From the NCBI GenBank assembly GCA_035486415.1, contig DATHNC010000057.1, positions 119-64,118 of the forward strand: a DNA stretch of 64,000 nt. The letters are read 5' to 3'. Origin of the DNA: Candidatus Saccharimonadales bacterium. Lineage in GTDB: Bacteria; Acidobacteriota; Terriglobia; Acidiferrales; UBA7541. The notes beneath the pieces were generated by a model. The model searched no databases. It saw only the letters and a program-made list of their open reading frames with translations, and was not told where the DNA came from. Positions 2,782 through 44,250 of this stretch are shown in pieces. Position numbers and translations under genes: made by a program. Every line of letters starts with the position of its first letter. Position 1 is the stretch's first letter.

Positions 2782-3117
2782 GTGCAACTTTCTATGGAAG
2801 AACTCGAAGGTCAGATCACGAAAGTGATCCTCGATGGCCGAATGGATATAACCGGCGCTGCGGACGTTGATTTGAAAATGAATGTGATTGCCGGCAGCAA
2901 AAAATTTGTGGTGATTGATGCGCAGAAAATTACTTTTCTCGGATCGATGGGCCTTCGAACGATTGTAAACGCGGTGCGCGCGGTTAAGGGCCGCGGCGGT
3001 AAAATTGTCATGTATGGAGCAAGTCAGGAAGTCGAGAAAGTCCTCACGGTGAGCGGCGTCAGCACACTCCTGCCCCTCCTCCCTGATTTGCAGAGTGCTA
3101 TCGCATTAATGAAGTAA
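2782..3117 (+). CDS. STAS-domain anti-sigma-factor antagonist (SpoIIAA/RsbV-like)
   Basis: 111 aa. GTG start preceded by GGGAGG. FLGSMGL motif has a Ser at the SpoIIAA Ser58-equivalent position (Ser55, codon 2944-2946). Gap-free paralogue of 15351-15686. Confidence 0.85.
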   Translation: MQLSMEELEGQITKVILDGRMDITGAADVDLKMNVIAGSKKFVVIDAQKITFLGSMGLRTIVNAVRAVKGRGGKIVMYGASQEVEKVLTVSGVSTLLPLLPDLQSAIALMK

Positions 3118-3350
3118 ACCGTGGCGCAATTGGGTTACAATACCCCCGCCTTTGAATCACTTAACGACAACGAATAGCACGATTCAGATCTACGATGAGC
3201 GGCAGCTTGTGCCCACTGTTCTTGGTGATTTGGGCCACGCGCACTCTTGGATTGAACGCATGATTTGGGCACGCCAAATTCCAACCTCCTACAAATTTGC
3301 GATAACCTTGCGCTTGAAAAAAAATCCGTCCTGCGTAATCGGGCAAGGGT

Positions 3351-5045
3351 ATGCAAATGAATAACTCGCCAGCAGACGACGGGGCCGTCCTCGAGCTTAT
3401 TTTTCCGGACAAATCCACGCGCAATGTGCCGATGAACTCCTTCCCATTTTTTATTGGCCGCGGCGCCGAAGGAAATAATCTCCAACTGGTTGATGCGCGG
3501 ATCTCCCGCCAGTGCGCCTCGATTGATTTCGTCAATGGAAAGTATCGCCTGGAAAATCGCGGGCATCGCCGCGGTTTATTCGTAAATAAAAATAAAGTCG
3601 AACAATGCGTATTGGAAAATAGAGACGCGATCACGTTCGGCCTGGATGATTCGTACGAAATTATTTTCCGCGTTCCGACGGCGGACACTTCCATCCAAAC
3701 CATTCTCAGCCGCATCGACGGTGTTTCCACGGAAGAAACGGTTTCCGGCGGCCTTAGCAAACTGAATTTGCTTCTTGCCGCGACCTCCCTTCTGCATTCC
3801 GAGCTTCCCCTGGACTCCGTTCTGGGCACGATGCTCGACCATGCAATTTCCGTCACGAACGCCGACCGCGGCCTGTTGATCGAAGCCGATTCGCCGGCCG
3901 CGTTTCGAATCCGGCTGGCACGTCAAAGCGGCGGATTGCAATTGTCATCAGAAAACCTCGCGCCTAGTCAGACTGCGCTTCGCCAGGCGTACGAACTGCA
4001 ATCCAGCGTGATTACCGAAGACCTCGCTCAAGCGGACACCGAATTGCAAGCGGCGATGAGCATCGTGGCCCAGCACCTCCGCGCCATCGTCGTCATTCCG
4101 CTTTATGCCATGCATCGCGAGACTCCATCGGATGCAGTTACACCCGTGCGGCGAAATGATTTCCTGGGCATGCTGTATCTGGATTCCCGGCGTCCTACGG
4201 CATTTTCAAAAATTGATCGCGAGATTCTGGATGTTCTCGCCGTGCAAGCCGCCAGCATTTTGGACAACGCCCGGCTCGTCGAACATGAGCGCGAACGCCA
4301 GCGCATGGAGCAGGAGCTGGATATTGCCAGGAACATTCAGCAGGCTCTCCTGCCAAGAGGATTCCGCGATTTTCCGCAACTGGCCATTTCCGGCGTGAAT
4401 TATCCTTGCCACGCCGTCGGTGGAGATTACTTCGATGTGTTTCCGATGGGCGAAGAACGCACCGCGTTTGTCGTTGCCGACGTCGCCGGAAAAGGACTTG
4501 GCGCGGCCCTTGTTACAACCATGCTGCAAGGCTCCTTAACAGGTGTGGGGATTGGCGCTGATCCTGTGCTCCTGTTTCAGCATATGAACAAGTTTCTGTG
4601 CGAGCATGCGGAAGTCGGCCGCTATGCGACGGTATTTTTCGGAATCGTTGACCGCGCGGGAAATCTTGAATATCTGAATGCCGGTCATCCATCGCCGATT
4701 GTGATGCGTGGCGCTCAAGTCAATGAGTTGTTTGAAGCGGGTTCGTTCCCTGTCGGCCTGGTTCCCGAAGCAACGTATAAGACGGACCATGCCAAGCTCG
4801 AGCCCGGCGACACTTTGGTATTGTTCAGCGACGGCGTAACAGAGGCGACGGATCCTGCCGAACAAATGTACGGAGTTCCGCGGCTTTGTGAAACGCTTGC
4901 GGGCATGCAGGACGTTCCACTCGAACAAGTTCAAAAGAAAGTTGTGGATTCTGTCAACTCTTTCGCGCGCGGGGCCAGCCAGGCGGATGATATTACGTTG
5001 CTGCTGGTTCGTTATCTGGCGGCGGGGCAATCCGCGGCAACCTGA
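3351..5045 (+). CDS. FHA-GAF-PP2C (SpoIIE/RsbU-type) serine phosphatase
   Basis: N-terminal FHA signature (FFIGRG...ISRQCASI...NRGHRRGLFVN). Central GAF-like region. C-terminal PPM/SpoIIE motifs GGDYFDV, VADVAGKG, NAGHPSP, LFSDGVTEA, DDITLLL. Confidence 0.85.
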   Translation: MQMNNSPADDGAVLELIFPDKSTRNVPMNSFPFFIGRGAEGNNLQLVDARISRQCASIDFVNGKYRLENRGHRRGLFVNKNKVEQCVLENRDAITFGLDDSYEIIFRVPTADTSIQTILSRIDGVSTEETVSGGLSKLNLLLAATSLLHSELPLDSVLGTMLDHAISVTNADRGLLIEADSPAAFRIRLARQSGGLQLSSENLAPSQTALRQAYELQSSVITEDLAQADTELQAAMSIVAQHLRAIVVIPLYAMHRETPSDAVTPVRRNDFLGMLYLDSRRPTAFSKIDREILDVLAVQAASILDNARLVEHERERQRMEQELDIARNIQQALLPRGFRDFPQLAISGVNYPCHAVGGDYFDVFPMGEERTAFVVADVAGKGLGAALVTTMLQGSLTGVGIGADPVLLFQHMNKFLCEHAEVGRYATVFFGIVDRAGNLEYLNAGHPSPIVMRGAQVNELFEAGSFPVGLVPEATYKTDHAKLEPGDTLVLFSDGVTEATDPAEQMYGVPRLCETLAGMQDVPLEQVQKKVVDSVNSFARGASQADDITLLLVRYLAAGQSAAT

Positions 5046-5259
5046 CGGAATAATATCTTCATTGCTGAATGACTCAGGTTCCGATTAGAATTTGGCGATT
5101 CAAAGCAAAGTAGTGAGTTTGGGTTGATGAATTTGAATAGGGAATGGTTGATCCCTGTCGATCATTCGTATTTTCCCACCTGGTAAGAATAGTATCCGGA
5201 TTCCTTGTGATTGTGCCCTGCGAATCACGAGAAAAAAAGCTGTTTTAGAGGAGGTCCAA

Positions 5260-8200
5260 ATGGAGAGGCTTACCCAGTCGATCCGCTACATTTTCAATTT
5301 TGTGCTTCTGGTTGCCATGTGCCTGTCGACGGCAAGAGCGCAGGATTCAGGTGGACGCATCATCGGCAACATCACGGACCAGGCAAAGGGAGTGGTTGCC
5401 GGTGCAAACGTAACTGTGACGAATGAAGGCACGATGAAATCCGATCGCACCGTTACGAACGCGGAGGGTTTCTATCAAGTCCTCGCTCTGCCTATCGGTT
5501 CTTACAGCGTGACCATCGAAGTGGCAGGGTTCGAGAAACAGGTTTTTGAGCATCAGGGATTGGAGATCAACCAGACGCGGCGTGTCGATGCGCAACTTAA
5601 GGTCGGCGTGGTAACCGAATCCGTGATCGTGACCGAACAGCCGGTGGCCATTGAAACCGTCAACCAGACGATCGGCGGCACCATCATTGGCGCAGCGATT
5701 CAGGAAGCTCCATTAAATGGGCGCGACGTTTTGCAACTTGCATTGCTTCAACCTGGCGTGACCGAAACCAATCCCGATAATCAGAGCCAGGGTGCCTTCA
5801 GCATCGCTGGCGGCCGCACCGACAGCGTCACGTTTTTGCTGGACGGAGCTGAGAATAACAATCTACTCAACAACGGTGTTGTGTTTAATCCGAATCCGGA
5901 CGCCATCGCCGAATTCCGTATTCTTGAAAGCAATTATTCCGCGGAATATGGGCGCAATAGTGGCGGGATCGTCAGCGTGGTGACCAAGTCTGGGACGAAC
6001 GTATATCATGGGACTGTTTACGATTACCTGCGCAACGATGCATTCAACGCCAACACATTTTTCAATAATGAGCAAGGAATCCCCCGGAATATTCTGAAGC
6101 GCAACCAGTTCGGCGGTACTTTGGGTGGGCCTCTTTCCGTTCCTCATTTGGTCAACGGGAAAGACCGTTTCTTTTTCTTCGTAAGTTACCAGGGTCAAAG
6201 ACTTTCAGAGCAGGAAACTACCATTCCCTCGCAAACGCGCGTATTCACGAAGGCGGAATTGGGGGGCGACTTTTCGAAGTCTGGGCCAAATGGCACACCA
6301 GATCCTAATGTTGTGTGCTTTCTGACTGGATTTCTCCCCGGCGGCGTCACACCGTGCGGATCGACAGCTCAATCTTTCTTCCAATCGAATTCGCAGATGG
6401 CTGCCCAGGGAATACTGGACCCGACGAAATTCAATCCAGCTTCAATGAAATATATAGCTGCGGGACTAATACCTTCGACAACAAATGCGGACGGCCTCGT
6501 AACGCCAGTCGGTTCGCACATAGATAATCGCAACGAATTGACCATGAAGTTCGATTTCCAGATCACGGAAAAGGACAAGCTGACTGCAACCATCGGCGGC
6601 TTCCGGAATCCGGTGCTCGATCCTTTTATAACGCCTGCAAGTCCAGTGGCGTTCGCGAATGTTGCGGGTTATGGAGTAAATGAAAATTATAATTCTTATT
6701 TAGTAAACCTGGCGTACAGCCGAACAATTAATTCCGGTATGCTGAACGAACTGCGCTTTTTCACGCAGCGCCAGCACACAACGCAGGGAGTGCCCTCTAC
6801 ACAACTGCCAACAGCCAGCCAACTTGGAATTGCCATTACTCCGGACAACCCATCTGGACCGCCGCTACTGCAGTTTGATACAGGGCTCGAAACGGGCTTC
6901 AGCTACCAGGGCCCGACGACGCTGGTAAACAATACATTTGGCGCCACAGATACTTTCAGTTGGATTCATGGCCGACATAATTTGAAGTTCGGCGGTGGAA
7001 TTTCTTCCTACCAGAACAATGAAGTTTACGATTTCATTGTGAATGGCGTATTTACGTTCATCGGAGCAGGCGGAACGGGGACAGGAAATTCATTTGCCGA
7101 TTTCCTTCTCGGCCTGCCCAACAACTATCAGCAAGGTCCTGCCGCGCCTTCCAACATTCGCACCAAATCATTTTACGGCTTCGCACAAGATGAGTGGCGC
7201 GTGGCCAGGCGCCTTACTTTGACTTTGGGCTTGCGCTACGAGTACAACAGCCCGAAATACGACACCGAAGGCCGCACTTTTTCGATTATCCCGGGCCTGC
7301 AATCCTCCATTTTCACGAATGCGCCCCCTGGTCTTGTTTTTCCCGGAGATCAAGGCGCGCCGCGCGGCGTGAATTTTCCTGTGAAGAACAATTGGGCGCC
7401 GCGATTCGGATTTGCGTGGGACCCGCGCGGGGACGGAAAAACAAGTCTTCGCGGCGGTATTGGGGTTTTTTATGACATCCTGAAGGCCGAAGACAATTTT
7501 CAATTTAATGGCCAGGCTCCATTTTTTTCCGGGGCATTCTTCGGATTTAATAGTTTGCCTCCGGGCCAATCCAGCATCGTTACCAATTTTTCAGATCCCT
7601 TCGGATCGATTGGCATACCGAATACTTTTCCGTCCACACCGCCTCCGTCGACCCTGGACTTCAGCCCTTATCTGCCATTCGGTGCGGGCAGTTTGTTCTT
7701 CGTCGATCCACATCTCCGGACTCCTTATACCTATCAATACAATCTCAGTTTGCAGCGGCAACTGACGTCGAATTTGTCCCTTGAATTGGGCTATCTTGGA
7801 AGTTCTTCGCACGGACTGACTTCCCTTCAGGATGTCAACCCATTCATATTGGGAACGACGAATAGAGTATTAAACAAGGGCGCGGGCGATTCGACATGTG
7901 CCGATGAGACGGGCGGAAATATCAATCTTTCTGGATGCAGCTTTGCCGGAATTTCCGAATTTAAAAATGTGGCAAACGCCACCTATAACGGGCTCGATGT
8001 AAATCTTCAGGAACAGCTTCACAAGTCGGACAGATTTGGCGGAGTTTATTTTACGTTGGGCTATACCTACAGCCACGGAATCGACAACGCCTCGGGCTTC
8101 AACCAGCGGAACAGGAATGTCCCATCCTATGATCCGGGATTGTTTCGAGCGTCGAGTGACATGGACCTTCGCCATCGATTTACGTTCAGCGGCAACTGGG

Positions 8201-8802
8201 ATTTGCCATTCGGCCACATGTGGCGCGGGGGCCCGAAGCGCCTGACGGAAGGCTGGAGTTTGTTTCCCATTATCAGTTGGAGATCCGGCTTCCCCCTGGA
8301 CATCTTCGCGGACCTCCCTGACAGAAATTTAGCCGGTACGGAAGGACCGTCGGGCGCAGGCGATCCTCAGGTCGTCCATGCCAATGTTGTGGGTCCAACG
8401 AATACGAAGAACCCCCGAGCGAATGGAAATTTGTGGTTCAACCCAACTAGCTTTAGCAATGCTCGTTGCTTCGATCCCCTAAATCCGCCGCCTTGCACTC
8501 CCGGTCCCGGCTTGTTTCCTGCCGATTCTCAGGTCGTAGCCAATCCGGCGCTGGCAACTTACGGTTCACTGCCGCGCAACTTTCTGCGCGGCCCGGGCCG
8601 CTTCAATTTTGATCTAACCGTGGCCAAGTCCATAGCAATTACAGAACGGATGAAGCTGCAATTCCAGGCGGACATTTTCAACGTATTCAACCAGGCTGAA
8701 TTCCTGAATCCCGATACGACCATTACAGATCCAACGTTCGGGCAAATCACCAACACGTCCGACCCGCGCATCATTCAACTCGCTGCGCGTTTCAGCTTCT
8801 AA
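5260..8802 (+). CDS. TonB-dependent outer-membrane receptor with N-terminal carboxypeptidase-regulatory-like domain
   Basis: 1180 aa. GGAGG RBS and signal peptide ending ARAQ. N-terminal GRIIGNITD...GANVTVTN...GFYQV..LPIGSY beta-sandwich. Plug-like region (NGRD...LQPGV). Terminal aromatic residue (RFSF), as in beta-barrel proteins. Confidence 0.85.
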   Translation: MERLTQSIRYIFNFVLLVAMCLSTARAQDSGGRIIGNITDQAKGVVAGANVTVTNEGTMKSDRTVTNAEGFYQVLALPIGSYSVTIEVAGFEKQVFEHQGLEINQTRRVDAQLKVGVVTESVIVTEQPVAIETVNQTIGGTIIGAAIQEAPLNGRDVLQLALLQPGVTETNPDNQSQGAFSIAGGRTDSVTFLLDGAENNNLLNNGVVFNPNPDAIAEFRILESNYSAEYGRNSGGIVSVVTKSGTNVYHGTVYDYLRNDAFNANTFFNNEQGIPRNILKRNQFGGTLGGPLSVPHLVNGKDRFFFFVSYQGQRLSEQETTIPSQTRVFTKAELGGDFSKSGPNGTPDPNVVCFLTGFLPGGVTPCGSTAQSFFQSNSQMAAQGILDPTKFNPASMKYIAAGLIPSTTNADGLVTPVGSHIDNRNELTMKFDFQITEKDKLTATIGGFRNPVLDPFITPASPVAFANVAGYGVNENYNSYLVNLAYSRTINSGMLNELRFFTQRQHTTQGVPSTQLPTASQLGIAITPDNPSGPPLLQFDTGLETGFSYQGPTTLVNNTFGATDTFSWIHGRHNLKFGGGISSYQNNEVYDFIVNGVFTFIGAGGTGTGNSFADFLLGLPNNYQQGPAAPSNIRTKSFYGFAQDEWRVARRLTLTLGLRYEYNSPKYDTEGRTFSIIPGLQSSIFTNAPPGLVFPGDQGAPRGVNFPVKNNWAPRFGFAWDPRGDGKTSLRGGIGVFYDILKAEDNFQFNGQAPFFSGAFFGFNSLPPGQSSIVTNFSDPFGSIGIPNTFPSTPPPSTLDFSPYLPFGAGSLFFVDPHLRTPYTYQYNLSLQRQLTSNLSLELGYLGSSSHGLTSLQDVNPFILGTTNRVLNKGAGDSTCADETGGNINLSGCSFAGISEFKNVANATYNGLDVNLQEQLHKSDRFGGVYFTLGYTYSHGIDNASGFNQRNRNVPSYDPGLFRASSDMDLRHRFTFSGNWDLPFGHMWRGGPKRLTEGWSLFPIISWRSGFPLDIFADLPDRNLAGTEGPSGAGDPQVVHANVVGPTNTKNPRANGNLWFNPTSFSNARCFDPLNPPPCTPGPGLFPADSQVVANPALATYGSLPRNFLRGPGRFNFDLTVAKSIAITERMKLQFQADIFNVFNQAEFLNPDTTITDPTFGQITNTSDPRIIQLAARFSF

Positions 8803-8821
8803 GTTAAGAAAAATACGTGCG

Positions 8822-8859
8822 AACCCTGCGCGGGGTTGAATTGCCGCTTGCGCAGGGTT
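8822..8859 (+). terminator. Hairpin downstream of the TonB receptor gene (possible terminator, no U-tract)
   Basis: AACCCTGCGC (8822-8831) pairs with GCGCAGGGTT (8850-8859), 20 nt after the stop. No T-run follows, so intrinsic termination is uncertain. Confidence 0.3.
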
Positions 8860-9058
8860 TGCTCAGCAGACGAAAAAAATCCAGAAAATATTTTGAAGCG
8901 CGGATCGTCTCTCCATTTCTGGATAGTCGAGCACTCCAGTTGGAACCTGTCGGGCAAGCCTACACCATCAATTTGAACCCCTAACTGCAAATGCTGCTTG
9001 TATTTCCTCAACGAAATCCCATAATTAGGAGTGATTTGGAGTTGTTGATTCCCTGTCT

Positions 9059-12000
9059 ATGCAATGCATTCAATGCAAGGCGGAAAACCCGCCCACCGTA
9101 GCCCGATGTGTAAAGTGCAATACCCCCTTCTCGTTTGACGGCCAAACTCGCTACGAAACAATATCCGGCGGCATGCTGGATGCTGAAACGACTCCGCCAG
9201 GAACCTCCGCAGCTTGGTCCATGGTGGTCACTCCACCAGCGGGTGCCGCAGCCGGCCAAGGCGGCGAACTTGTGGGAACGATTTTGGCCGATCGTTACGA
9301 AATCATTTCTCTGCTGGGCCAAGGCGGAATGGGTGCGGTTTACAAAGCGCACGATAAAGAATTGGAGCGCATGGTGGCGCTCAAACTGATTCGTCCTGAC
9401 CTGGCCAGCAACCCGGAAATTCTGCGGCGATTCAAACAAGAGCTGATTTTGGCCCGCGATGTCACTCACCGGAACGTCATCCGCATTTTTGATCTGGGGC
9501 AAGCCAACGGAATTAAATTCATCACGATGGAATATGTGGAGGGCCGCGACCTTCGCGCCCTTCTGCACGAAAAAGGAAAAGTTTCACCCGAAGAAGCGGT
9601 CGAGATTATTGCGCAGATTTGCCGAGCGCTGGAATCCGCGCATTCCGCTGGCGTGGTTCACCGTGATCTAAAGCCGCAAAACATCATGCTGGACGCGAAA
9701 AATCGCGTTTACGTGATGGACTTCGGCATCGCGCATTCGCTGGAAACGCCGGGCATGACGCAGACGGGCGCCCTGATGGGCACTCCCGAATACATGTCGC
9801 CCGAGCAGGCTAAGGGATCAAAGATCGACGCGCGGTCGGATCTTTTTGCCGTTGGCATAATTTTTTATGAATTGCTCACTGGTGTTTCCCCTTACAAAGC
9901 GGACTCAGCGATCGCCACGCTCCTGAAGCGCACGCTGGAGCGGCCCTTGTCTCCTACCGAGGTTGATCCTGCTATCCCGCAGAGCATCAGCGACGTGGTG
10001 ATGAATTGTCTGGCAATCGATCGCGAGCATCGGTATTCCAGCGCCAGGGAAATCCTGGAAGATCTCGGGCACGAAGGGCCCACATCGGGGCGAACGATGG
10101 CGAGAACCCTCGCGCCGTCGTTCCCCACCATTGCGCCGACTCCTCCACAGGCAAAAGTTCCGTTCTGGGTTCACAACCAAATCTGGATCGGGACGGGCGT
10201 CGGAATATTTTTGCTTGCGGTTGCGGGGTTTGTTTTCCGAGGAAAAATATTTTCTGGATCTTCCCCCCAAAGCGGCACGCCGGTAGAACAAGCTTCTCTC
10301 GCCATTCTGCCTTTTCGAAACGGGTCCGGCGAAGCATCGCTCGATTGGCTTGGGCCGAGTCTTGCGGACATGGTCAGCACGGACGTCGGGCAATCTGCGG
10401 GACTGCGCACGATCTCTCCCGATCGTTTGCATCAAGTGCTCACGGACTTGCGAGTCAGTCCGGGCACGGCTATCGATTCCGGCATGGTGGGCCGCATCGC
10501 TGAATTCAGCAATGCTGACACAGTGGTTTCCGGGCAATACGCAAAATTCGGCGACCAGATTCGCATCGATGCCACGCTGACGGACGTGAAGCACAATCGA
10601 ACTGCGTCTTTGACGATCAACGCCGCGAGCGAAAAAGAAATCCCGGGCACGGTGGACGGCCTTGCGGAACTCATCCGCAAAAATCTGGCGGTGTCTTCGG
10701 ACGTATTGAAAGAACTGAAGGCCAGCTCTTTCCAACCGACATCCAAATCCGTTCCGGCGCTCCGCGATTACGACCAAGGCGTGCAGCAGCTTCGTGACGG
10801 CAAGAACCTGGAAGCCGTAAAAATGTTTCAGTCCGCGATTCAGGAAGATCCGCAATTCGCGCTTGCTTACTCTCGTCTGGCGGAAACCGATTCCGCGCTT
10901 GGATACGACGACGATGCGGATAAATACTCGCGTCAGGCCGTTGACCTCAGCCAACAGCTTCCGCTCGCCGAGAGATACCAGATCGAAGGCAATCGCGCGC
11001 GCGTGATGAAGGACACTAAAAAAGGCATTGAAGCATACGAAAATCTTGCCAAGACTTTTCCCAACAACGCGGACGTCGAATTCGCCCTCGGCAGCCTGTA
11101 TGAGGATGACGGCAATTTTGAAAAAGCTCTCATGCATTACGGCAACGTGTTGAAGGCAGATCCCAAAAATCTGGATGCCCTGCTGGCTACGGGCCGCGTG
11201 GAAAGCAAACGCGGAGATCCACAAGCCGGACTTGATTCTTTGGGGCGCGCTCTGAGCATTGCCGTTCAGCTTCAAAATCCTGAGCAGCAGGCCATGATTC
11301 TGCAGGCTACGGGCATTTCGTACAAATTGCTTGGAAGATCCGATGACGCTCTGAACAACTACAAGCAGTCGATGGACATTAATATGCGCATCGGCAAGAA
11401 GCGCGGCGTCGCCGCCAATCTGAGCGAAATCGCGCAGGTGCAGGCGCGCATGGGCAAATCGGATGAGGCGCTGGCCAACCTGACCAAAGCGCTCAGCTTG
11501 CAGCGCGAGATCGGCGTGAAAAAAGAAGTGGGAGACACGCTGATCGACCTGGGCCAGATGTATGAAGATCGCGGCAAGCACGAACAGGCTTTGCAGCAAT
11601 TCAAGGAAGCATTGCAAATTGAGCGCGACAGCGGAGACGAGCGCGACCAGGCTTACTGCCTGAACGACATCGGCAATGTGGATTTTGCAAAAGGCGAATA
11701 TCAGGACGCTCTGATTTATTTCCAGCAGGCTCTTGAGCTGCGCCAAAAACTGAATATTCCGGATGAAATCGCGGAAGCACTTTCCAATGTTGGCGAGACT
11801 CTCGCCAAGATGGGGCAATACGACAAGGCCATAGAGAACCATCTGAAGGCGCTGGATCTGGAACGCAAGGCGGGTGATAACCGTGCGGCCGCCATTGATT
11901 CTTCCAATCTCGGCCTTCTATTTGGCTATCAGGGGCGACTCGGAGCAGCCGTCAATTCCACGGCGGACGCAGTCAAAACATTGCGCGACTTGAAAGACAG

Positions 12001-12688
12001 AAGCCTATGGATGGATCAAGCGTTGAGCGGCTATGCCAACGCGCTTATCCAGGCCGGGCGCAGCGCGGAAGCTCAGCCGATCATCAAAGAAGGAACGGAC
12101 CTGGCCAAGGAACTGAAAAGCGACGTTACGCTGGCCGAAATTTTAATTTCACAAGGCGACGATGCGTATTACCGCGGCGATTCCAAGGCTGCCGCCGCCT
12201 CTTATCAACATGCATGGGAAGCAGCCAAGAGCGCCAAGTCTCCCGAAGATACGATCACCGCACAGATTGGCCTGGCAAAAACCCAATTACTGGAAGGCGA
12301 TTCCCGCAAGGCGCTGACTTCATTTCGAAGTTTGGCAGGACAAGCGAGCGCGGTCGATTTCAAGTACGCGGCACTGGAATCTTCCATTGACGCCGCGCTG
12401 GCGTTGCTGCATGACAAGAATTATTCGGACGCCAATCGAGAAGCGCAAAAAGCGCTCGGCCAAAGTGATGCGCAATCCTTGCGCATGCAGCTCGCGAGAG
12501 AGCATTACGTTCTGGGCGTGGCCACGCGCTCGGGCGGAAATCAGACGGAGGCTGCAGGCCACTTTCGCGACGCAGTTCAGATTTGGGATGAAATTCGCAA
12601 GGAACCCGGCGCAGAAAAAATCCTCGATCGTGGCGATTTAAAATCCATGTACGCGGAATCCTCGCAAGCAATCGCCGGAAAGAACTAA
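9059..12688 (+). CDS. Receptor-type Ser/Thr protein kinase: zinc ribbon, kinase domain, one TM helix, extracytoplasmic sensor-like domain and long TPR region
   Basis: CIQC...CVKC zinc ribbon. Hanks motifs GQGGMGAVYKA, HRDLKPQN, DFG, GTPEYMSPE. Hydrophobic segment IWIGTGVGIFLLAVAGFVF. ASLAILPFRNGSG...VVSGQYAKFGDQIRIDATL module, then about 650 aa of TPR-like repeats. Confidence 0.9.
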   Translation: MQCIQCKAENPPTVARCVKCNTPFSFDGQTRYETISGGMLDAETTPPGTSAAWSMVVTPPAGAAAGQGGELVGTILADRYEIISLLGQGGMGAVYKAHDKELERMVALKLIRPDLASNPEILRRFKQELILARDVTHRNVIRIFDLGQANGIKFITMEYVEGRDLRALLHEKGKVSPEEAVEIIAQICRALESAHSAGVVHRDLKPQNIMLDAKNRVYVMDFGIAHSLETPGMTQTGALMGTPEYMSPEQAKGSKIDARSDLFAVGIIFYELLTGVSPYKADSAIATLLKRTLERPLSPTEVDPAIPQSISDVVMNCLAIDREHRYSSAREILEDLGHEGPTSGRTMARTLAPSFPTIAPTPPQAKVPFWVHNQIWIGTGVGIFLLAVAGFVFRGKIFSGSSPQSGTPVEQASLAILPFRNGSGEASLDWLGPSLADMVSTDVGQSAGLRTISPDRLHQVLTDLRVSPGTAIDSGMVGRIAEFSNADTVVSGQYAKFGDQIRIDATLTDVKHNRTASLTINAASEKEIPGTVDGLAELIRKNLAVSSDVLKELKASSFQPTSKSVPALRDYDQGVQQLRDGKNLEAVKMFQSAIQEDPQFALAYSRLAETDSALGYDDDADKYSRQAVDLSQQLPLAERYQIEGNRARVMKDTKKGIEAYENLAKTFPNNADVEFALGSLYEDDGNFEKALMHYGNVLKADPKNLDALLATGRVESKRGDPQAGLDSLGRALSIAVQLQNPEQQAMILQATGISYKLLGRSDDALNNYKQSMDINMRIGKKRGVAANLSEIAQVQARMGKSDEALANLTKALSLQREIGVKKEVGDTLIDLGQMYEDRGKHEQALQQFKEALQIERDSGDERDQAYCLNDIGNVDFAKGEYQDALIYFQQALELRQKLNIPDEIAEALSNVGETLAKMGQYDKAIENHLKALDLERKAGDNRAAAIDSSNLGLLFGYQGRLGAAVNSTADAVKTLRDLKDRSLWMDQALSGYANALIQAGRSAEAQPIIKEGTDLAKELKSDVTLAEILISQGDDAYYRGDSKAAAASYQHAWEAAKSAKSPEDTITAQIGLAKTQLLEGDSRKALTSFRSLAGQASAVDFKYAALESSIDAALALLHDKNYSDANREAQKALGQSDAQSLRMQLAREHYVLGVATRSGGNQTEAAGHFRDAVQIWDEIRKEPGAEKILDRGDLKSMYAESSQAIAGKN

Positions 12689-12724
12689 TTTTCGGTCGTC
12701 AGCAAGCAAATCGATTCCCACAAT

Positions 12725-12765
12725 AAAAAATGGGCCGGACATTTCGTCCGGCCCACTAATTTTTT
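12725..12765. terminator. Bidirectional rho-independent terminator between convergent genes
   Basis: A6 run, stem GGGCCGGAC (12732-12740), loop ATTTC, stem GTCCGGCCC (12746-12754), then a T6 run. It sits between the kinase stop (12688) and the stop of the minus-strand gene (12785). Confidence 0.65.
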
Positions 12766-12784
12766 ATCTACCTACAAATCCTGT

Positions 12785-14434
12785 TTAGAATAACAGGAAT
12801 TTGACATTGTGGGGCACGTTGTCACCCATATTCCCGGTTACGACCACGCACTGATCATCGAGGGATTTGGGAGTCTTCCAATTGAACTGGTAGTACCCGC
12901 TGCCCTTGTTAATCAGCCCTGTATTGGTTTCCGTGTCGACAGGAAGGGTCTCGTCAAGGCTGGCATTGCTGGACTTCAAACAAATGTTCGTGACAGCGAA
13001 GCCCAAATACCCGAGTGGTGGGAAGTTAAGATTCGTGACTGGGCCTCCGTTGAAACCCAAGCTCGCATTGACAGGGTAAAGGAGCCGCCACTTGAACGGA
13101 ATGGTTGAGCCCGCCAGTGCCAAGTTAATGAAGGGCGGGTTAAGAACCGGTACATCGAATCCGTAGAACGTGAATGGCGGTATTGCATAGGCCGACGGTG
13201 AAGTCGAAGAGCTCGGAAAATCCGCTGAAACGACAAGAGAGTTGTAGGAACTCCCGCCGCTGCCACGTGTGCAGCAATCAGACTGGAATCCGACTCCAAA
13301 TGCCACCCAGTCATCATTGCCCTCATGGGCAGTTAGCATTTGAGGAGCGTAACCGGTAAGGTTATCCGTCGAAGAATAGGTCAGAATGTTGCTGATGTCC
13401 AAGTTGCTATGCGGCACTGGCGGGTTAGCGAGCGGGTCAAAACCGCCCGTCGCGGGGCATTGGCTTGATGAAGAGGATGCCCCATTCAGCGAACAGGCGA
13501 CATCGAAGATAACTGAAAAGTTCCCAGGATTAGTGTTGCTGAACGTCGTGCATCTTGGTTCGTCGCCAGAGAAACTAGAAATATTAACGGCAGAAGTGCA
13601 GTCGGCGGGACTCAGTACGTTTGCATAAAGAGTCATTGTTGTATTCGCCGGAACATTGGAAGCGGCTGGATAGACCACGATATATTTTGCGAATCCGAAG
13701 TCGAATGTATTGGTAGCCCCATTTCCCAGCAGCGAATGTGTAATGGCTGCCGGCCCAGTGCCCACGGCGCTGAGTTCCTGGTCTGTATTCCCCTGAGCAG
13801 CCGTGCTCGACCCGAATGCATAGTATTTGTAAGCTGTTCCGAAATCAAAAAACGCTTCATATCCGACAGATCCATTGGGGCCATTACCAGTGGTCCCTAT
13901 ATAGCCAGAGCACGCTCCATACGTGGAAGCCAATGGACATGTGCTGACATTGTTTACAATTAATGGCTCAGTCCCGGTGTATGTACCGAGCGTAAATGGT
14001 TCAGCGGTGCCATTCACCGTTTGCGGGTCAAACAGCATCGTCCAGTTCACACCGTCAGTGCTGCCCGCGATTGAATATTGATAACCATCGTATGCCGATC
14101 CTAAGTGATCCATGCTTGGAAATACAATGATCGTCGATACCGGAGTCAGAAAGGTCGCCTCGATCCAATTATTACTAGCAGATAAGCCGGTGCCTGTAAG
14201 ATTCCCGCCGTAAATACGCAAACCGCTCGCTACAGTGGCTGCTGTCGGAGTGTATGGCGTAGAAACATCACCGCCAGAAAAATTACTGAGCGTGGCATAG
14301 CTGGTAATTGGTCCGGTGAAGTTAGAGAGTGTACTGTCATTGATGTAAATCTGCGCATGGGCCACCGGGGCAAAACCCAGAATGGCGCCCACAGCAAGCA
14401 AACCAATTTTTTTAACAATGTTTTGAAAATTCAC
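12785..14434 (-). CDS. Secreted Asn/Ser/Thr/Gly-rich protein of unknown function (possible galactose-binding-like N-domain and Ig-like C-domain)
   Basis: ORF 12785-14503. GTG at 14434 is preceded by AAGGAG and followed by a signal peptide (KKIGLLAVGAILGFAPVAHA/Q). NWIEATF...YQYSIAGSTDGVNWTMLF resembles discoidin/F5-8-type-C domains. C-terminal AGSTIPFKWRL...GYYQFNWKTPK resembles PxKF-type Ig-like domains. Both resemblances are by eye only. Confidence 0.6.
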   Translation of the reverse strand: MNFQNIVKKIGLLAVGAILGFAPVAHAQIYINDSTLSNFTGPITSYATLSNFSGGDVSTPYTPTAATVASGLRIYGGNLTGTGLSASNNWIEATFLTPVSTIIVFPSMDHLGSAYDGYQYSIAGSTDGVNWTMLFDPQTVNGTAEPFTLGTYTGTEPLIVNNVSTCPLASTYGACSGYIGTTGNGPNGSVGYEAFFDFGTAYKYYAFGSSTAAQGNTDQELSAVGTGPAAITHSLLGNGATNTFDFGFAKYIVVYPAASNVPANTTMTLYANVLSPADCTSAVNISSFSGDEPRCTTFSNTNPGNFSVIFDVACSLNGASSSSSQCPATGGFDPLANPPVPHSNLDISNILTYSSTDNLTGYAPQMLTAHEGNDDWVAFGVGFQSDCCTRGSGGSSYNSLVVSADFPSSSTSPSAYAIPPFTFYGFDVPVLNPPFINLALAGSTIPFKWRLLYPVNASLGFNGGPVTNLNFPPLGYLGFAVTNICLKSSNASLDETLPVDTETNTGLINKGSGYYQFNWKTPKSLDDQCVVVTGNMGDNVPHNVKFLLF

Positions 14435-14679
14435 GATTTTCTCCTTGAAGAAATTGAACAGGATCCCGTTGCAATACTGGACGCAAGTGGCGATACACCC
14501 CACCCGTACATCGAAATCAGACCGAACACTTAATCTCCTCGAATGAATCCGGAATGTCTACGTCACAATACATTCACAACCATTGCGGCAAGGGATACGC
14601 GGGGGAAACGCACCTTGCACTGTTGCCAATGGAAGAAGAAGCGAATGATGCCTATAACAGTCAATTAAATCAATAAGAT

Positions 14680-14707
14680 AAAAGTCATAGACGTACTATG
14701 ACTTTTC
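14680..14707 (-). terminator. Rho-independent terminator after the RsbW-like gene
   Basis: AAAGTCATAG / CTATGACTTT stem with loop ACGTA, flanked by an A-run and a T-run. On the minus strand it lies about 170 nt downstream of the 14876 stop and is followed by TTTTAT. Confidence 0.55.
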
Positions 14708-14875
14708 CCCCTGCATTCCGCTTATATAAACTTGGCATGGAAAGGTGACGATTAACCTCGCTTTGTTACAACAATAGGACGGGGGCGTTAAGATCTCATT
14801 ACACCCAATTTAATCTCCCGGCACCCGCCACGTACCGCGCGATGATTTGTTCTAAACTTTTGCTTTGAATGGACC

Positions 14876-15328
14876 TTAGGTTCCGGAATCCGCACCTGCA
14901 AATATCATCGTCAACCGGTTGCCCGTAGGCGTCATTGTGTACTCCAACTTCTCCGTGAAATGCCGAAGAAAGTGAACTCCCTGCCCCCCAACGCGAGGAG
15001 TTCCCCTGGTGTCGGGCGTAGGGGCATCAAGAGGATTAAAGTGTTGCGCTTCATCTTCCACAACGAATTCAAACGATTCTGGCGCTGGCATCGCAAAATG
15101 GACCGTCACCATGCCCTCCTCGCCGTCGCCATAACCGTGACGAATCACATTCGATACCGCCTCTTCCAGACAGACATTTATGGCGAACTCCACGTCTTTG
15201 GAAATGGCGTGCCGCAGGGCGAGTTCTCCAATCCATGAGGGAAGTTGAGCGATCTCCGAGAGCTTGCTTTGCAAGGAAAGACACGCCTCGGGTTGATTCG
15301 GTTCGCGTACCGTCATACATCGCGTCAC
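14876..15328 (-). CDS. Anti-sigma regulatory factor / STAS-phosphorylating Ser kinase (RsbW/SpoIIAB-like, HATPase_c)
   Basis: 150 aa. N-box-like EEAVSNVIRHGY, FNPLD segment and GGQGVHFLRHF G2-like box. Lies 22 nt downstream of a STAS gene on the same strand. Confidence 0.8.
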   Translation of the reverse strand: MTRCMTVREPNQPEACLSLQSKLSEIAQLPSWIGELALRHAISKDVEFAINVCLEEAVSNVIRHGYGDGEEGMVTVHFAMPAPESFEFVVEDEAQHFNPLDAPTPDTRGTPRVGGQGVHFLRHFTEKLEYTMTPTGNRLTMIFAGADSGT

Positions 15329-15350
15329 TTTCTTTAATTTTCATGGTTCT

Positions 15351-15686
15351 TTACAGTAATGCGGCCAAAGCCGTGTTCATTTCGTGATGAACGGGGATCA
15401 TCGTTTCGATCCCACTGATCTTCAAAACTTTGGCCACCATCTCATTCGGAGCAAAGAGAACCATCTTGCCTCCCCGCCCTCGAATTGCCAATGCAGGCCC
15501 AACAAGTGCACGAAGGCCCATCGATCCAAGGAAGGAAACATTGCTCATATCCACCAGAACCGAATTCCGGCCGCCGGCTATTGTTTTCATCTGTGAATCA
15601 ACGGCAGGCGCGTTTTCAATATCCAACCTGCCATCTAAGACCACTTTTGTAATGCCGCCTTCAAGTTCTTCCGTCGTGATTGCCAT
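15351..15686 (-). CDS. STAS-domain anti-sigma-factor antagonist (second paralogue)
   Basis: 111 aa. Strong RBS (GGAAGAGGGAG). FLGSMGL with Ser55. About 45 percent identical (hand count, no gaps) to the STAS protein at 2782-3117. Confidence 0.85.
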   Translation of the reverse strand: MAITTEELEGGITKVVLDGRLDIENAPAVDSQMKTIAGGRNSVLVDMSNVSFLGSMGLRALVGPALAIRGRGGKMVLFAPNEMVAKVLKISGIETMIPVHHEMNTALAALL

Positions 15687-15821
15687 TTAGCGATCTCCCT
15701 CTTCCTTGTTGATTGGGTCTTCAGCCTGGAGACTGGCTCAAAAATATTCTGCAGGAACGTAATCCCCGATTTGTGCCGCCCGTATTCAAATTACTTCGGC
15801 TGTCAAAATGAAAACACGACC

Positions 15822-16787: not shown

Positions 16788-17000
16788 GATCTCCTGAACC
16801 GGATCTGATTTTGGGTATTGGTCCCGCCAGACCAAGACATGTGGCGCCATACCTTATCGGACGCTGTCCTTCTGGTCTAATCCAACTTTTAGATTAGAGG
16901 GAATTGATTCGTGGATTCGATTTTTTTATGAGGAATAGTCGACTAGTCGAAAGTGCTGGGTGCGTTTGACTAATTCCGATTATCGGGCGTACGCTGGTGA

Positions 17001-19084: not shown

Positions 19085-19159
19085 TTGGGGATGGTGCAAT
19101 CGGTAGCACAGCGGCCTTTGAAGCCGTTAATCTTGGTTCGAGTCCAAGTCCCCAAGCCA
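19085..19159 (+). tRNA. tRNA-Gln (anticodon UUG)
   Basis: A 75 nt cloverleaf can be drawn. Acceptor TTGGGGA/TCCCCAA, U8, D-stem GTGC/GCAC with GG in the loop, anticodon stem GCGGC/GCCGT, loop CTTTGAA, T-arm CTTGG-TTCGAGT-CCAAG, discriminator G, encoded CCA. Confidence 0.9.
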
Positions 19160-36307: not shown

Positions 36308-36429
36308 AATAAAACCTCAAATGAAGATTACTCTTTCGGGGTGTAACCTTTACGAAATTGGCACCCCAGACTTCTCGACGGGTGAGCGATGTGGTGGTAC
36401 CCTTTGGGCTTAGGTCAGCAGGAGTAATT

Positions 36430-44236: not shown

Positions 44237-44250
44237 TGCGCCGATCCACG

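What the first reader, a model, noticed from the sequence alone, without database searches (positions are those of the whole stretch)
2782..15686. Partner-switching toolkit with no sigma factor, split around a TonB receptor, a receptor Ser/Thr kinase and a secreted protein
All the parts of an RsbV/RsbW/RsbU-type module are present. They sit at the two ends of a 13 kb block instead of in one operon. STAS-1 (2782) and an FHA-GAF-PP2C phosphatase (3351) are on the plus strand. STAS-2 (15686-15351) and an RsbW-like kinase (15328-14876) are on the minus strand. Between them lie a 1180-aa TonB-dependent receptor, a 1209-aa membrane Ser/Thr kinase with an extracytoplasmic sensor and TPR region, and a secreted Asn/Ser/Thr-rich protein. 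No sigma factor lies in or next to the block, so the output is unknown. The FHA domain on the phosphatase is a phospho-Thr reader. That suggests the Hanks kinase could gate the phosphatase and link an envelope or nutrient signal to the STAS phosphorylation state. This wiring is inference from domain content and proximity only.
Basis: partly seen in the sequence, partly recalled or inferred. Interest (0 to 1): 0.7.

Follow-up and report, generated by a model that had tools for sequence, protein, structure and literature searches.

The report
Two partner-switch modules, one glutaminase-linked
The genes are all there, but they are two related signalling modules rather than one split module: one has lost its kinase gene, and the other sits in a conserved trio with a glutaminase, which is probably what it controls instead of a sigma factor.

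Summary
The "one split toolkit" reading does not hold.

- **Left module.** Relatives with 86-88% identical PP2C carry a complete STAS–RsbW–FHA/GAF/PP2C operon. In the window, a deletion of about 280 bp has reduced that RsbW to a decayed 5' remnant (3113-3361).
- **Right module.** STAS-2 and RsbW-2 belong to a different clade of the same Terriglobia STAS/RsbW subfamily. That clade is nearly always linked to a glutaminase gene: 19 of 51 informative loci, including one with nothing else from the block.
- **Glutaminase link.** 47 of 77 sampled long (over 380 aa) homologues of this glutaminase are glutaminase–STAS fusions. Glutaminase is therefore the most likely output of the right module.
- **Hanks kinases.** They recur next to, or inside, FHA-PP2C/STAS/RsbW cassettes in distant relatives, as at least four non-orthologous kinase types. 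This supports the FHA–kinase idea.
- **Other genes.** The receptor kinase and the secreted lectin-family protein are conserved neighbours. The TonB receptor is shared only by close relatives.
- **Decay.** A 93%-identical relative has lost everything from the TonB receptor to STAS-2 but keeps the PP2C.

All biochemical links are inferred. This is a new variant of a known kind.

The parts
2782..3117 (+). STAS-1, an anti-sigma-antagonist-type protein of 111 aa. The phosphorylatable Ser55 lies in the subfamily motif FLG-S-MGLR. It belongs to the FHA-PP2C cassette clade.
   Evidence: Pfam STAS. NCBIfam ant_ant_sig scores 54.1 against a cutoff of 53.45. Ser position; clade. dN/dS against L085/L001 is 0.16-0.17, compared with 0.056 between those two relatives.
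3113..3361 (+). Pseudogene remnant of RsbW-1. Only the first ~66 codons remain. The N-box is destroyed and the G1/G2 boxes are deleted. There is no obvious start codon.
   Evidence: DNA alignment to the intact gene in L001 shows a deletion of about 280 bp. The remnant is 39% identical at protein level over 64 aa, E=5e-14. dN is 0.42, compared with 0.05 between intact orthologues. The gene is intact in L001, L085 and L172.
3351..5045 (+). Cytoplasmic FHA-GAF-PP2C (SpoIIE-type) Ser phosphatase, 564 aa.
   Evidence: Pfam. The FHA residues G36, R37, S52 and R53 are invariant across 14 orthologues, as are the PPM aspartates D359, D377, D494, D546 and D547. dN/dS is 0.07-0.09. The nearest solved structures are P. 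aeruginosa RssB-type PP2C, Rv1364c and SpoIIE.
5142..5167 (+). Terminator-like hairpin after the PP2C gene.
   Evidence: Consensus scan. This is weak evidence.
5260..8802 (+). TonB-dependent receptor of 1180 aa. It is a passenger shared only with close relatives.
   Evidence: Pfam. Orthologues appear only in L001, L085, L172 and L088. Elsewhere only paralogues are found, at about twice the background density.
9059..12688 (+). Receptor Hanks-type Ser/Thr kinase of 1209 aa. Its parts, in order: a zinc-ribbon-like N-terminus, the kinase domain, a Thr-rich juxtamembrane segment, one transmembrane helix (376-396), then an extracytoplasmic TolB-N-like region and TPR repeats.
   Evidence: Pfam; hydropathy. 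Orthologues lie near PP2C-STAS-RsbW in L001, L085, L172 and in the distant loci L048/L050. dN/dS is 0.05.
12729..12757 (.). Bidirectional intrinsic terminator between the convergent kinase gene and secreted-protein gene.
   Evidence: Stem of 13 bp with 8 GC pairs and T-runs on both strands.
12785..14434 (-). Secreted protein with a signal peptide and a C-terminal PxKF domain. It is the positional orthologue of the Lectin_legB proteins in relatives, but its N-terminal domain has been swapped.
   Evidence: No Pfam hit. NCBIfam PxKF domain. The C-terminal ~350 aa are 47% identical to the L001 lectin-domain protein and about 39% to the L087 one, and the whole protein is 72% identical to the L088 541-aa protein. 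L048 has a Lectin_legB gene in the same position.
14680..14706 (-). Terminator-like hairpin downstream of RsbW-2.
   Evidence: Consensus scan. This is weak evidence.
14876..15328 (-). RsbW-2, a SpoIIAB/RsbW-fold GHKL Ser-kinase-like protein of 146-150 aa. It belongs to the glutaminase-linked clade.
   Evidence: Pfam HATPase_c_2. Residues E55, E56, N60, D92, G114 and G117 are invariant in 44 homologues. The AlphaFold model has pLDDT 85.6. Its best structural matches are SpoIIAB (TM 0.74-0.78) and RsbW. dN/dS is 0.07-0.12.
15351..15686 (-). STAS-2, 111 aa with Ser55. It is 47% identical to STAS-1 and belongs to the glutaminase-linked clade.
   Evidence: Pfam. NCBIfam ant_ant_sig scores 71 against a cutoff of 53.45. 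Identity; clade. dN/dS is 0.05-0.07.
15822..16850 (-). Glutaminase A. It is the first gene of the conserved trio glsA-STAS-RsbW and the candidate output of the right-hand module.
   Evidence: Pfam Glutaminase, E=5e-113. TIGR03814 scores 345.7 against a cutoff of 255.4. The trio is conserved.

Best explanation
**What the block is.** It is a neighbourhood conserved at about genus level in Ca. Acidoferrales-like Terriglobia. It places two paralogous phospho-switch modules of one lineage-specific STAS/RsbW subfamily (motif FLG-S-MGLR) side by side.

**Module A.** This is STAS-1, RsbW-1 and the FHA-GAF-PP2C phosphatase. It was ancestrally complete. In this genome a deletion has reduced RsbW-1 to a dead 5' remnant, and STAS-1 is evolving faster.

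**Module B.** This is the operon-like trio glutaminase, STAS-2 and RsbW-2. It has no phosphatase gene of its own.

**Between them.** A receptor Hanks kinase and a convergent secreted lectin-family protein are recurrent partners of module A in relatives. A TonB-dependent receptor is a local passenger.

**Most likely mechanism (all steps inferred).**
1. RsbW-2 phosphorylates STAS-2 on Ser55, and possibly STAS-1 too.
2. The FHA-GAF-PP2C removes that phosphate.
3. The phosphatase is recruited or gated by phospho-threonines on the activated Hanks kinase through its FHA domain, and by an unknown ligand through its GAF domain.
4. The phosphorylation state of STAS-2 decides whether STAS-2, or RsbW-2 once freed from it, engages the glutaminase. 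The output is glutamine hydrolysis, not a sigma factor.

**Shown versus inferred.** Gene content, the pseudogene, clade membership, synteny, purifying selection and the domain fusions are shown. Every protein-protein and enzymatic step is inferred.
For: **Two modules, not one**
- NJ trees of 94 RsbW-like and 93 STAS sequences separate clades that match gene context. Window STAS-2/RsbW-2 fall with the glutaminase-linked pairs. Window STAS-1 and L001 RsbW-1 fall with the FHA-PP2C cassettes.
- RsbW-1 is intact in L001, L085 and L172. In the window it is truncated and degenerate.

**Glutaminase as output**
- The same-strand trio glsA-STAS-RsbW occurs in the window, L087, L088-90, L091-L100 and others. 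That is 19 of 51 STAS-RsbW loci with informative flanks.
- It includes L091, where no other gene of the block is present, and a subclade with the order STAS-RsbW-glsA.
- Of 77 long (over 380 aa) homologues of the window glutaminase, about 45-56% identical to it, 47 carry a STAS domain and 55 a cNMP-binding domain fused after the glutaminase domain.
- Glutaminase, STAS-2 and RsbW-2 are all under strong purifying selection.

**Hanks kinase and FHA link**
- Nine species-level loci have the order PP2C, Hanks kinase, STAS, RsbW.
- Other loci have PP2C-STAS inside arrays of Pkinase-PD40 genes.
- L048/L050 have the window-type kinase and a lectin gene next to PP2C-STAS-RsbW.
- Kinase density is 3-fold higher within 3 kb of the PP2C than at 3-10 kb.
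- All STAS phosphosites are Ser, so the pThr-specific FHA domain must read another protein.

**No sigma**
- No sigma gene is adjacent to any of about 170 related loci.

**RsbW-2 is kinase-like**
- The N-box and G2 box are conserved, and the predicted fold matches SpoIIAB.
Against: - No experiment supports any step.
- L086, with a 93%-identical PP2C, has lost module B, the kinase and the TonB receptor, and has a truncated STAS-1, yet keeps the PP2C. In addition, 36 of 59 species have an 'orphan' FHA-GAF-PP2C with no STAS or RsbW within 3 kb. The phosphatase therefore does not depend on these neighbours.
- The glutaminase trio lies next to the PP2C only in the window's own clade. In L091 and L106 no PP2C lies within 7-9 kb.
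- The fused STAS domains of glutaminases mostly lack the phospho-Ser and are only distantly similar to STAS-2. The fusion evidence is therefore an analogy, not orthology.
- The G1 box of RsbW-2 lacks the usual glycines.
- A sigma-B/F-type sigma elsewhere in the genome cannot be excluded from a 64 kb window.
- The promoter and terminator evidence is weak.
Confidence: 0.5

Rival explanations
1. This is one partner-switching toolkit split across the two ends of a functional 13 kb unit. RsbW-2 serves both STAS proteins, the Hanks kinase gates the FHA-PP2C, and the output is unknown. The TonB receptor and the secreted protein are part of the signalling unit.
For: - All parts are present.
- The whole block is syntenic in three related lineages despite saturated synonymous divergence.
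- STAS-1 and STAS-2 share the FLG-S-MGLR motif and 47% identity, so cross-phosphorylation is plausible.
- Hanks kinases recur near the PP2C.
Against: - The two STAS/RsbW pairs belong to different clades with different gene contexts.
- The split is a secondary deletion of RsbW-1.
- After that loss, STAS-1 evolves about 3 times faster, and it is truncated in the sister lineage L086. This argues that RsbW-2 does not fully replace RsbW-1.
- The TonB receptor is not conserved beyond close relatives.
Confidence: 0.2
2. RsbW-2 is a genuine anti-sigma factor for a sigma factor encoded elsewhere in the genome, for example a stress sigma. Glutaminase is next to it only because it is co-regulated, for example as an ammonia-producing acid-resistance enzyme. 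It is not the protein target.
For: - The predicted RsbW-2 fold is closest to the anti-sigma factors SpoIIAB, RsbW and UsfX.
- STAS-2 passes the anti-sigma-antagonist superfamily cutoff.
- Chlamydia keeps its rsb genes scattered and away from the sigma gene (my own knowledge).
- Glutaminase-dependent acid resistance is established in enteric bacteria (PMC6250119, listed).
Against: - No sigma gene was found next to any of about 170 related STAS-RsbW or PP2C loci.
- RsbW-2 scores far below the SpoIIAB and RsbW equivalog cutoffs: 28.7 against 135, and 25.2 against 145.
- Glutaminase-STAS fusion proteins show that a STAS domain can act directly on this enzyme family.
Confidence: 0.2
3. The FHA-GAF-PP2C is mainly the counter-phosphatase of Hanks-kinase signalling, acting on pThr/pSer kinase substrates. 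Its adjacency to STAS/RsbW genes is historical, and the partner-switch parts in this lineage are decaying leftovers.
For: - 36 of 59 species have the PP2C with no STAS or RsbW within 3 kb.
- L086 keeps only the PP2C.
- RsbW-1 is a pseudogene and STAS-1 is under relaxed selection in the window.
Against: - STAS and RsbW genes are 16- to 30-fold enriched next to the PP2C.
- The phosphatase domain is SpoIIE/RsbU-type, the class that acts on STAS~P.
- STAS-2, RsbW-2 and glutaminase in the window are under strong purifying selection, so they are not decaying.
Confidence: 0.1

Closest known systems
B. subtilis RsbU-RsbV-RsbW-SigB and SpoIIE-SpoIIAA-SpoIIAB-SigF partner switching
   Same: The same three protein types are present. 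There is a STAS antagonist with the conserved Ser, a GHKL Ser kinase of SpoIIAB/RsbW fold, and a SpoIIE/RsbU-type PPM phosphatase.
   Different: No sigma gene is in or near the operon in any relative. The kinase scores far below the RsbW and SpoIIAB equivalog cutoffs. The phosphatase has FHA and GAF input domains instead of RsbU_N or a membrane domain. The right-hand pair is linked to a metabolic enzyme.
Partner-switching systems without a sigma output: V. fischeri SypE/SypA, Bordetella BtrU/V/W, Rhodobacter RbaV/W, Nostoc HmpU/V/W, and Anabaena HenR/All4160/Alr3423. In the Anabaena system the STAS domain is fused to a glycosyltransferase.
   Same: A STAS phosphoswitch has a non-sigma or unknown output. 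In the Anabaena case the switch acts directly on a biosynthetic enzyme (PMC8256260; bioRxiv 10.64898/2026.04.08.717354).
   Different: Here the candidate target is glutaminase, and it is encoded as a separate gene. The input is through FHA/GAF and Hanks kinases, not a receiver domain. I found no paper linking glutaminase and STAS.
M. tuberculosis PknD and Rv0516c, where a receptor Hanks kinase phosphorylates an anti-anti-sigma homologue
   Same: A receptor Ser/Thr kinase feeds into a STAS-based switch (PMC1847690, listed).
   Different: In M. tuberculosis the kinase phosphorylates the STAS protein directly. Here the inferred contact is a pThr on the kinase read by the FHA domain of the phosphatase. 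The genes are also physically clustered, with the kinase often sitting between the PP2C and STAS genes.
Glutaminase-STAS-cNMP_binding fusion proteins of about 610 aa, widespread among bacterial GlsA homologues
   Same: A glutaminase of the same subfamily, about 45-56% identical, is coupled to a STAS domain.
   Different: In the fusions the STAS domain is part of the same chain, mostly lacks the phospho-Ser, and is paired with a cyclic-nucleotide sensor. Here STAS is a separate gene, is phosphorylatable, and is paired with an RsbW-like kinase.
P. aeruginosa SiaA/SiaB/SiaC/SiaD
   Same: A PP2C, an RsbW-like kinase and a small antagonist-like protein control an enzyme (a diguanylate cyclase) rather than a sigma factor (PMC7647112, listed). 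SiaB appears among the weaker fold matches.
   Different: SiaC is not a Pfam STAS protein and is phosphorylated on Thr. The target enzyme, the inputs and the taxonomy all differ.

Membership tests
Anti-sigma-factor antagonist (RsbV/SpoIIAA, STAS-only proteins) | STAS domain that reaches the curated family cutoff | tested here: met
   Pfam STAS scores 47.4 and 59.7 bits against a cutoff of 22.6. NCBIfam ant_ant_sig scores 54.1 and 71.0 against a cutoff of 53.45.
Anti-sigma-factor antagonist (RsbV/SpoIIAA, STAS-only proteins) | Conserved phosphorylatable Ser at the SpoIIAA Ser58 position | tested here: met
   Ser55 in both proteins aligns with SpoIIAA S58.
Anti-sigma-factor antagonist (RsbV/SpoIIAA, STAS-only proteins) | Is phosphorylated by, and binds, a cognate RsbW-type kinase | not testable with these tools
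   Only gene adjacency and matching tree topologies of the STAS/RsbW pairs are available.
RsbW/SpoIIAB anti-sigma factor Ser kinases | GHKL (HATPase_c_2) domain with the SpoIIAB-like fold | tested here: met
   Pfam E=3.4e-22. The AlphaFold model has pLDDT 85.6. The top Foldseek hits are SpoIIAB 1l0o (TM 0.74/0.78) and RsbW 6m37.
RsbW/SpoIIAB anti-sigma factor Ser kinases | ATP-binding N, G1 and G2 boxes | tested here: inconclusive
   The N-box (E55, E56, N60), the G1 Asp (D92) and the G2 box (G114, G117) are invariant in 44 homologues. The G1 box reads D-x-A-x-x-F and lacks the usual glycines.
RsbW/SpoIIAB anti-sigma factor Ser kinases | Reaches the RsbW or SpoIIAB equivalog score | tested here: not met
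   TIGR01925 scores 28.7 against 135. NF003144 scores 25.2 against 145. There is no PDB hit by sequence.
RsbW/SpoIIAB anti-sigma factor Ser kinases | Cognate sigma factor gene in the same operon or neighbourhood, and binding of that sigma | tested here: not met
   No sigma gene lies within 40 kb in the window. None is adjacent in about 170 related loci. Binding cannot be tested here.
RsbU/SpoIIE-type PPM phosphatases of partner-switching systems | SpoIIE/PPM catalytic domain with the metal-binding aspartates | tested here: met
   Pfam SpoIIE E=2e-48 over profile positions 2-191 of 192. D359, D377, D494, D546 and D547 are invariant in 14 orthologues. Nearest PDB relatives are RssB-type PP2C, Rv1364c and SpoIIE.
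RsbU/SpoIIE-type PPM phosphatases of partner-switching systems | Encoded next to a STAS protein and an RsbW-type kinase | tested here: met
   The gene order is STAS-RsbW-PP2C in L001, L085 and L172. It is PP2C-(kinase)-STAS-RsbW in 14 of 59 species loci. Enrichment is 16- to 30-fold. In the window itself the adjacent RsbW is a pseudogene.
RsbU/SpoIIE-type PPM phosphatases of partner-switching systems | RsbU_N (RsbT-binding) or SpoIIE-type membrane input domain | tested here: not met
   The N-terminus carries FHA and GAF domains instead.
Hanks-type (eukaryote-like) receptor Ser/Thr kinases | Pkinase domain with catalytic motifs, plus a transmembrane segment and an extracytoplasmic sensor | tested here: met
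   Pkinase E=1.2e-53. The sequence shows the VALK, HRDLKPQN, DFG and SPE motifs. One transmembrane segment lies at 376-396, followed by a C-terminal TolB-N-like region and TPR repeats.
Glutaminase A (GlsA) | Reaches the curated equivalog cutoff | tested here: met
   TIGR03814 scores 345.7 against 255.4. Pfam Glutaminase E=5e-113.
TonB-dependent receptor | Signal peptide, Plug domain and a large beta-barrel | tested here: met
   Plug, OMP_b-brl_4 (625 bits) and CarboxypepD_reg. An N-terminal hydrophobic segment is present.

The most novel reading that the evidence does not exclude
A receptor Hanks kinase that senses an envelope or nutrient cue recruits an FHA-GAF-PP2C phosphatase. That phosphatase sets the phosphorylation state of a STAS protein. 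Together with an RsbW-like 'anti-enzyme' kinase, the STAS protein then switches glutaminase activity on or off directly. This would be a partner-switching circuit whose output is glutamine catabolism, and so nitrogen, ammonia or acid homeostasis, rather than transcription. The widespread glutaminase-STAS-cNMP fusions would be its single-chain, cyclic-nucleotide-controlled counterparts.
Probability: 0.25. Interest if true: 0.75.

Novelty: new variant of a known kind. Interest (0 to 1): 0.55.

Why it matters
Partner switching is usually taught as a way to control sigma factors. Only a few cases with other outputs are known, and most of their targets are unidentified. This work yields two concrete, testable units.

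- **The glsA-STAS-RsbW trio.** It is conserved and backed by natural glutaminase-STAS fusions. It names a specific metabolic enzyme as the likely target of a STAS/RsbW switch.
- **The FHA-GAF-PP2C / Hanks kinase / STAS / RsbW cassette.** It recurs across Terriglobia and physically links eukaryote-like Ser/Thr kinase signalling with partner switching.

Acidobacteriota are abundant in soil and poorly studied experimentally, and they encode very many Hanks kinases of unknown function. A defined downstream pathway would therefore be useful. The locus also captures stepwise decay of such a module, going from intact, to RsbW-1 lost, to nearly all lost. That series shows which parts are dispensable.

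Tried and rejected
- **Reciprocal loss of the two RsbW paralogues.** I considered that the window lost RsbW-1 while L086 lost RsbW-2, which would imply redundancy. I rejected this because L086 shares the RsbW-1 deletion, has a truncated STAS-1 and has lost module B entirely.\n- **Thr phosphosite on kinase-array STAS proteins.** I asked whether STAS proteins without a local RsbW carry Thr that the FHA domain could read. All have Ser.\n- **Sigma factor next to related cassettes.** The downstream genes are variable: S41 peptidase with PBP1a, P5C reductase, ABC-F, amylase. A SigB probe and an ECF probe found no adjacent sigma.\n- **TonB receptor as a conserved component.** Orthologues occur only in close relatives, and the 2-fold near/far difference rests on 7 against 8 hits.\n- **Conserved RNA element between glsA and STAS-2.** Rfam found none, and only the ribosome-binding site is conserved.\n- **Promoter scan.** It found fewer hits than shuffled controls, so it was uninformative.\n- **Literature.** Searches for glutaminase with STAS, or for FHA-PP2C with partner switching, found no direct description.\n- **Sequence search of RsbW-2 against the PDB.** It found nothing, so fold comparison was needed.

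Full report
**1. The observation**

ORF listing and Pfam scans confirm every gene at the stated coordinates.

| Gene | Coordinates | Evidence |
|---|---|---|
| STAS-1 | 2782-3117 (+) | Pfam STAS |
| FHA-GAF-SpoIIE/PP2C | 3351-5045 (+) | Pfam FHA, GAF, SpoIIE |
| TonB-dependent receptor | 5260-8802 (+) | CarboxypepD_reg, Plug, OMP_b-brl_4 |
| Pkinase-TPR protein, 1209 aa | 9059-12688 (+) | One transmembrane helix at 376-396 |
| Protein with signal peptide, no Pfam hit | 12785-14503 (-) | Probable start at 14434 |
| HATPase_c_2 (RsbW-like) | 14876-15328 (-) | Pfam |
| STAS-2 | 15351-15686 (-) | Pfam STAS |

- Both STAS proteins have Ser55 at the SpoIIAA Ser58 position.
- The only sigma gene in the window is an ECF sigma at 56092-56784, about 40 kb away.
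- The window comes from an Acidobacteriota (Ca. Acidoferrales-like) metagenome contig.

**2.

*A dead RsbW gene.* The 233 bp between STAS-1 and the PP2C gene are not a spacer.
- Aligned to the closest relative with DNA in hand (L001, GCA_035696345.1, PP2C 86% identical), they match the first ~200 bp of an intact 155-aa RsbW-like gene.
- A gap of about 280 bp then removes the rest of that gene.
- The remnant is 39% identical at protein level, with E=5e-14. Its N-box is destroyed: CLEEILSNIIRHGY has become RLKKNPSCVIGQGY.
- Its dN is 0.42, compared with 0.05 between intact orthologues.
- The gene is intact in L001, L085 and L172.

*A glutaminase gene.* A glutaminase A gene (15822-16850, -) lies 135 bp upstream of STAS-2 on the same strand.

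**3. Synteny**

The ancestral block had this order: STAS-1, RsbW-1, PP2C, TonB receptor, kinase, secreted protein (-), RsbW-2 (-), STAS-2 (-), glutaminase (-).
- It is conserved in at least three lineages: L001, L085/L087 and L172/L088-90. Synonymous divergence between them is saturated, with dS above 1.
- The relative with the most similar PP2C behaves differently. L086 (93% identical, seen in two samples) shares the RsbW-1 deletion and has a 5'-truncated STAS-1. It lacks window positions ~5046-16422 entirely, leaving the PP2C beside a 51-aa glutaminase stub.

**4. Wider comparison of the phosphatase**

I scanned species-representative genomes with a PP2C alignment and annotated the loci with HMMs. 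Among 59 full-length FHA-GAF-PP2C loci:

| Context within 3 kb of the PP2C | Loci |
|---|---|
| STAS and RsbW (8 of these also have a Hanks kinase within 3 kb, usually between the PP2C and STAS genes) | 14 |
| STAS only | 7 |
| Kinase only | 2 |
| None of these ('orphans') | 36 |

- Densities within 3 kb against 3-10 kb, per 10 kb: STAS 0.66 against 0.04; RsbW 0.42 against 0.01; kinase 0.39 against 0.13; TonB receptor 0.21 against 0.11.
- The kinases are of several non-orthologous types:
  - short Pkinase proteins of about 550-690 aa;
  - arrays of Pkinase-Tricorn/PD40 genes around PP2C-STAS;
  - the window-type kinase with a TolB-like region and TPR repeats.
- In L048/L050 (PP2C only 51% identical), that window-type kinase again lies beside a convergent Lectin_legB gene and PP2C-STAS-RsbW.
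- The window's secreted protein is the positional orthologue of these lectin proteins, with a swapped N-terminal domain.
- No sigma gene flanks any cassette.

**5. The right-hand pair**

I scanned metagenome contigs with an RsbW-2 alignment. This gave 51 STAS-RsbW loci with informative flanks.

| Gene linked to the STAS-RsbW pair | Loci |
|---|---|
| Glutaminase | 19 |
| A different PP2C, without FHA or GAF | 13 |
| FHA-GAF-PP2C | 8 |
| Hanks kinase only (probably truncated cassettes) | 5 |
| None | 6 |

- NJ trees of both proteins give clades that match these contexts. Window STAS-2/RsbW-2 sit in the glutaminase clade. Window STAS-1 and L001 RsbW-1 sit in the FHA-PP2C clade.
- L091 (RsbW-2 59% identical, on a 1.5 Mb contig) has glsA-STAS-RsbW with none of the other block genes.
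- One subclade has the order STAS-RsbW-glsA.

**6. Domain-fusion evidence**

- An exhaustive HMMER search with the window glutaminase returned many homologues of about 610 aa.
- I scanned 77 long single-match homologues (over 380 aa, about 45-56% identical). Of these, 47 carry a STAS domain and 55 a cNMP-binding domain after the glutaminase domain.
- The fused STAS domains mostly lack the phospho-Ser.
- I found no paper connecting glutaminase and STAS.

**7. Are the parts functional?**

| Gene | dN/dS against orthologues |
|---|---|
| PP2C | 0.07-0.09 |
| Kinase | 0.05 |
| TonB receptor | 0.07 |
| STAS-2 | 0.05-0.07 |
| RsbW-2 | 0.07-0.12 |
| Glutaminase | 0.02-0.07 |
| STAS-1 | 0.16-0.17 (0.056 between the two relatives that keep RsbW-1) |

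- The FHA pThr-binding residues (G36, R37, S52, R53) and the PPM aspartates are invariant.
- RsbW-2 keeps the N-box, the G1 Asp and the G2 glycines, but not the G1 glycines.
- Its AlphaFold model (pLDDT 85.6) is closest to SpoIIAB and RsbW.
- It falls far below the RsbW and SpoIIAB equivalog cutoffs.

**8. Interpretation**

The block holds two paralogous modules of one Terriglobia-specific STAS/RsbW subfamily.
- Module A is the PP2C cassette. In this genome it is missing its kinase.
- Module B is a glutaminase-linked pair that never carries its own phosphatase gene.

The proposed working model is as follows:
1. RsbW-2 phosphorylates STAS-2 on Ser55.
2. The FHA-GAF-PP2C reverses this.
3. The phosphatase is positioned or gated by phospho-threonines on the Hanks kinase, in its Thr-rich activation loop and juxtamembrane segment, and by a GAF ligand.
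4. The STAS-2/RsbW-2 state controls the glutaminase.

All four steps are inference from domain biology, gene context and fusions.

Counter-evidence:
- Orphan PP2Cs are common, and L086 keeps only the PP2C. The phosphatase is therefore not tied to these partners.
- Adjacency of modules A and B is limited to the window's clade.
- A sigma factor elsewhere in the genome cannot be excluded.

**9. Comparison with known systems**

- Partner-switching systems without a sigma output are known. Examples are SypE/SypA, BtrUVW, RbaVW, HmpUVW, and HenR/All4160, where the STAS domain is fused to a glycosyltransferase (PMC8256260; bioRxiv 10.64898/2026.04.08.717354).
- A Hanks kinase acting on a STAS protein is known in M. 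tuberculosis (PknD and Rv0516c, PMC1847690).
- Two features appear undescribed: the glsA-STAS-RsbW trio, and the cassette combining FHA-GAF-PP2C, a Hanks kinase, STAS and RsbW.

**10. Verdict**

- This is a new variant of a known kind.
- Interest is moderate to good because it offers a specific, testable non-sigma output.

Noticed in passing
window 9059-9130 (+): The long reading of the kinase ORF starts with a zinc-ribbon-like CxxC...CxxC motif (MQCIQCKAENPPTVARCVKCNTPF). One gene call (1171 aa) skips it. The orthologue call in L172 (1209 aa) keeps it.
   Followed up: partly
window 12785-14434 (-): The secreted protein has a C-terminal PxKF domain (NCBIfam NF038114). Its N-terminal ~200 aa replace the Lectin_legB domain found in positional orthologues of L001 and L087, which is a domain swap.
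   Followed up: partly
window ~5046-16422; locus L086: An 11.4 kb deletion variant runs from the TonB receptor into the glutaminase gene. It co-occurs with the window-type contig in the same metagenome sample (3300050821). The mechanism and boundary repeats were not examined.
   Followed up: partly
L003 1836-21692 and L004 1-15126: PP2C-STAS pairs without a local RsbW sit inside arrays of 4-7 tandem Pkinase-Tricorn/PD40 kinase genes.
   Followed up: no
window 19085-19156 (+): A tRNA gene (Rfam, 67 bits) lies just upstream of the M50 peptidase gene.
   Followed up: no
window 21129-22550 (+) and 56092-56784 (+): A sigma-54-dependent response regulator, and the only sigma-70-family (ECF) gene in the window. 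Neither is linked to the block in relatives.
   Followed up: partly
protein P0121 (identical to window 14876-15316, -): NCBI labels the identical RsbW-2 on a 64,273-bp contig as 'Candidatus Saccharimonadales'. All relatives are Acidobacteriota, so the contig is probably mis-binned.
   Followed up: no
proteins P0230-P0248: The best-scoring glutaminase representatives are 600-1300 aa proteins that match the glutaminase query in two separate stretches. Their architecture was not examined.
   Followed up: no
loci L109, L112, L116-L118, L120, L123, L131, L142: A third clade of the same STAS/RsbW subfamily is linked to a different PP2C that lacks FHA and GAF. Its input domain was not characterised.
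   Followed up: no
L037 14431-18597 and L041 6956-10841: In Terracidiphilus-type loci, an S41 (Ctp-like) peptidase and a class A PBP follow the PP2C-kinase-STAS-RsbW cassette. This may hint at a cell-envelope link.
   Followed up: no
window 36358-39279 (+): A 973-aa ORF has no Pfam match. Several other ORFs (41238-42707, 42991-44904) also have none.
   Followed up: no
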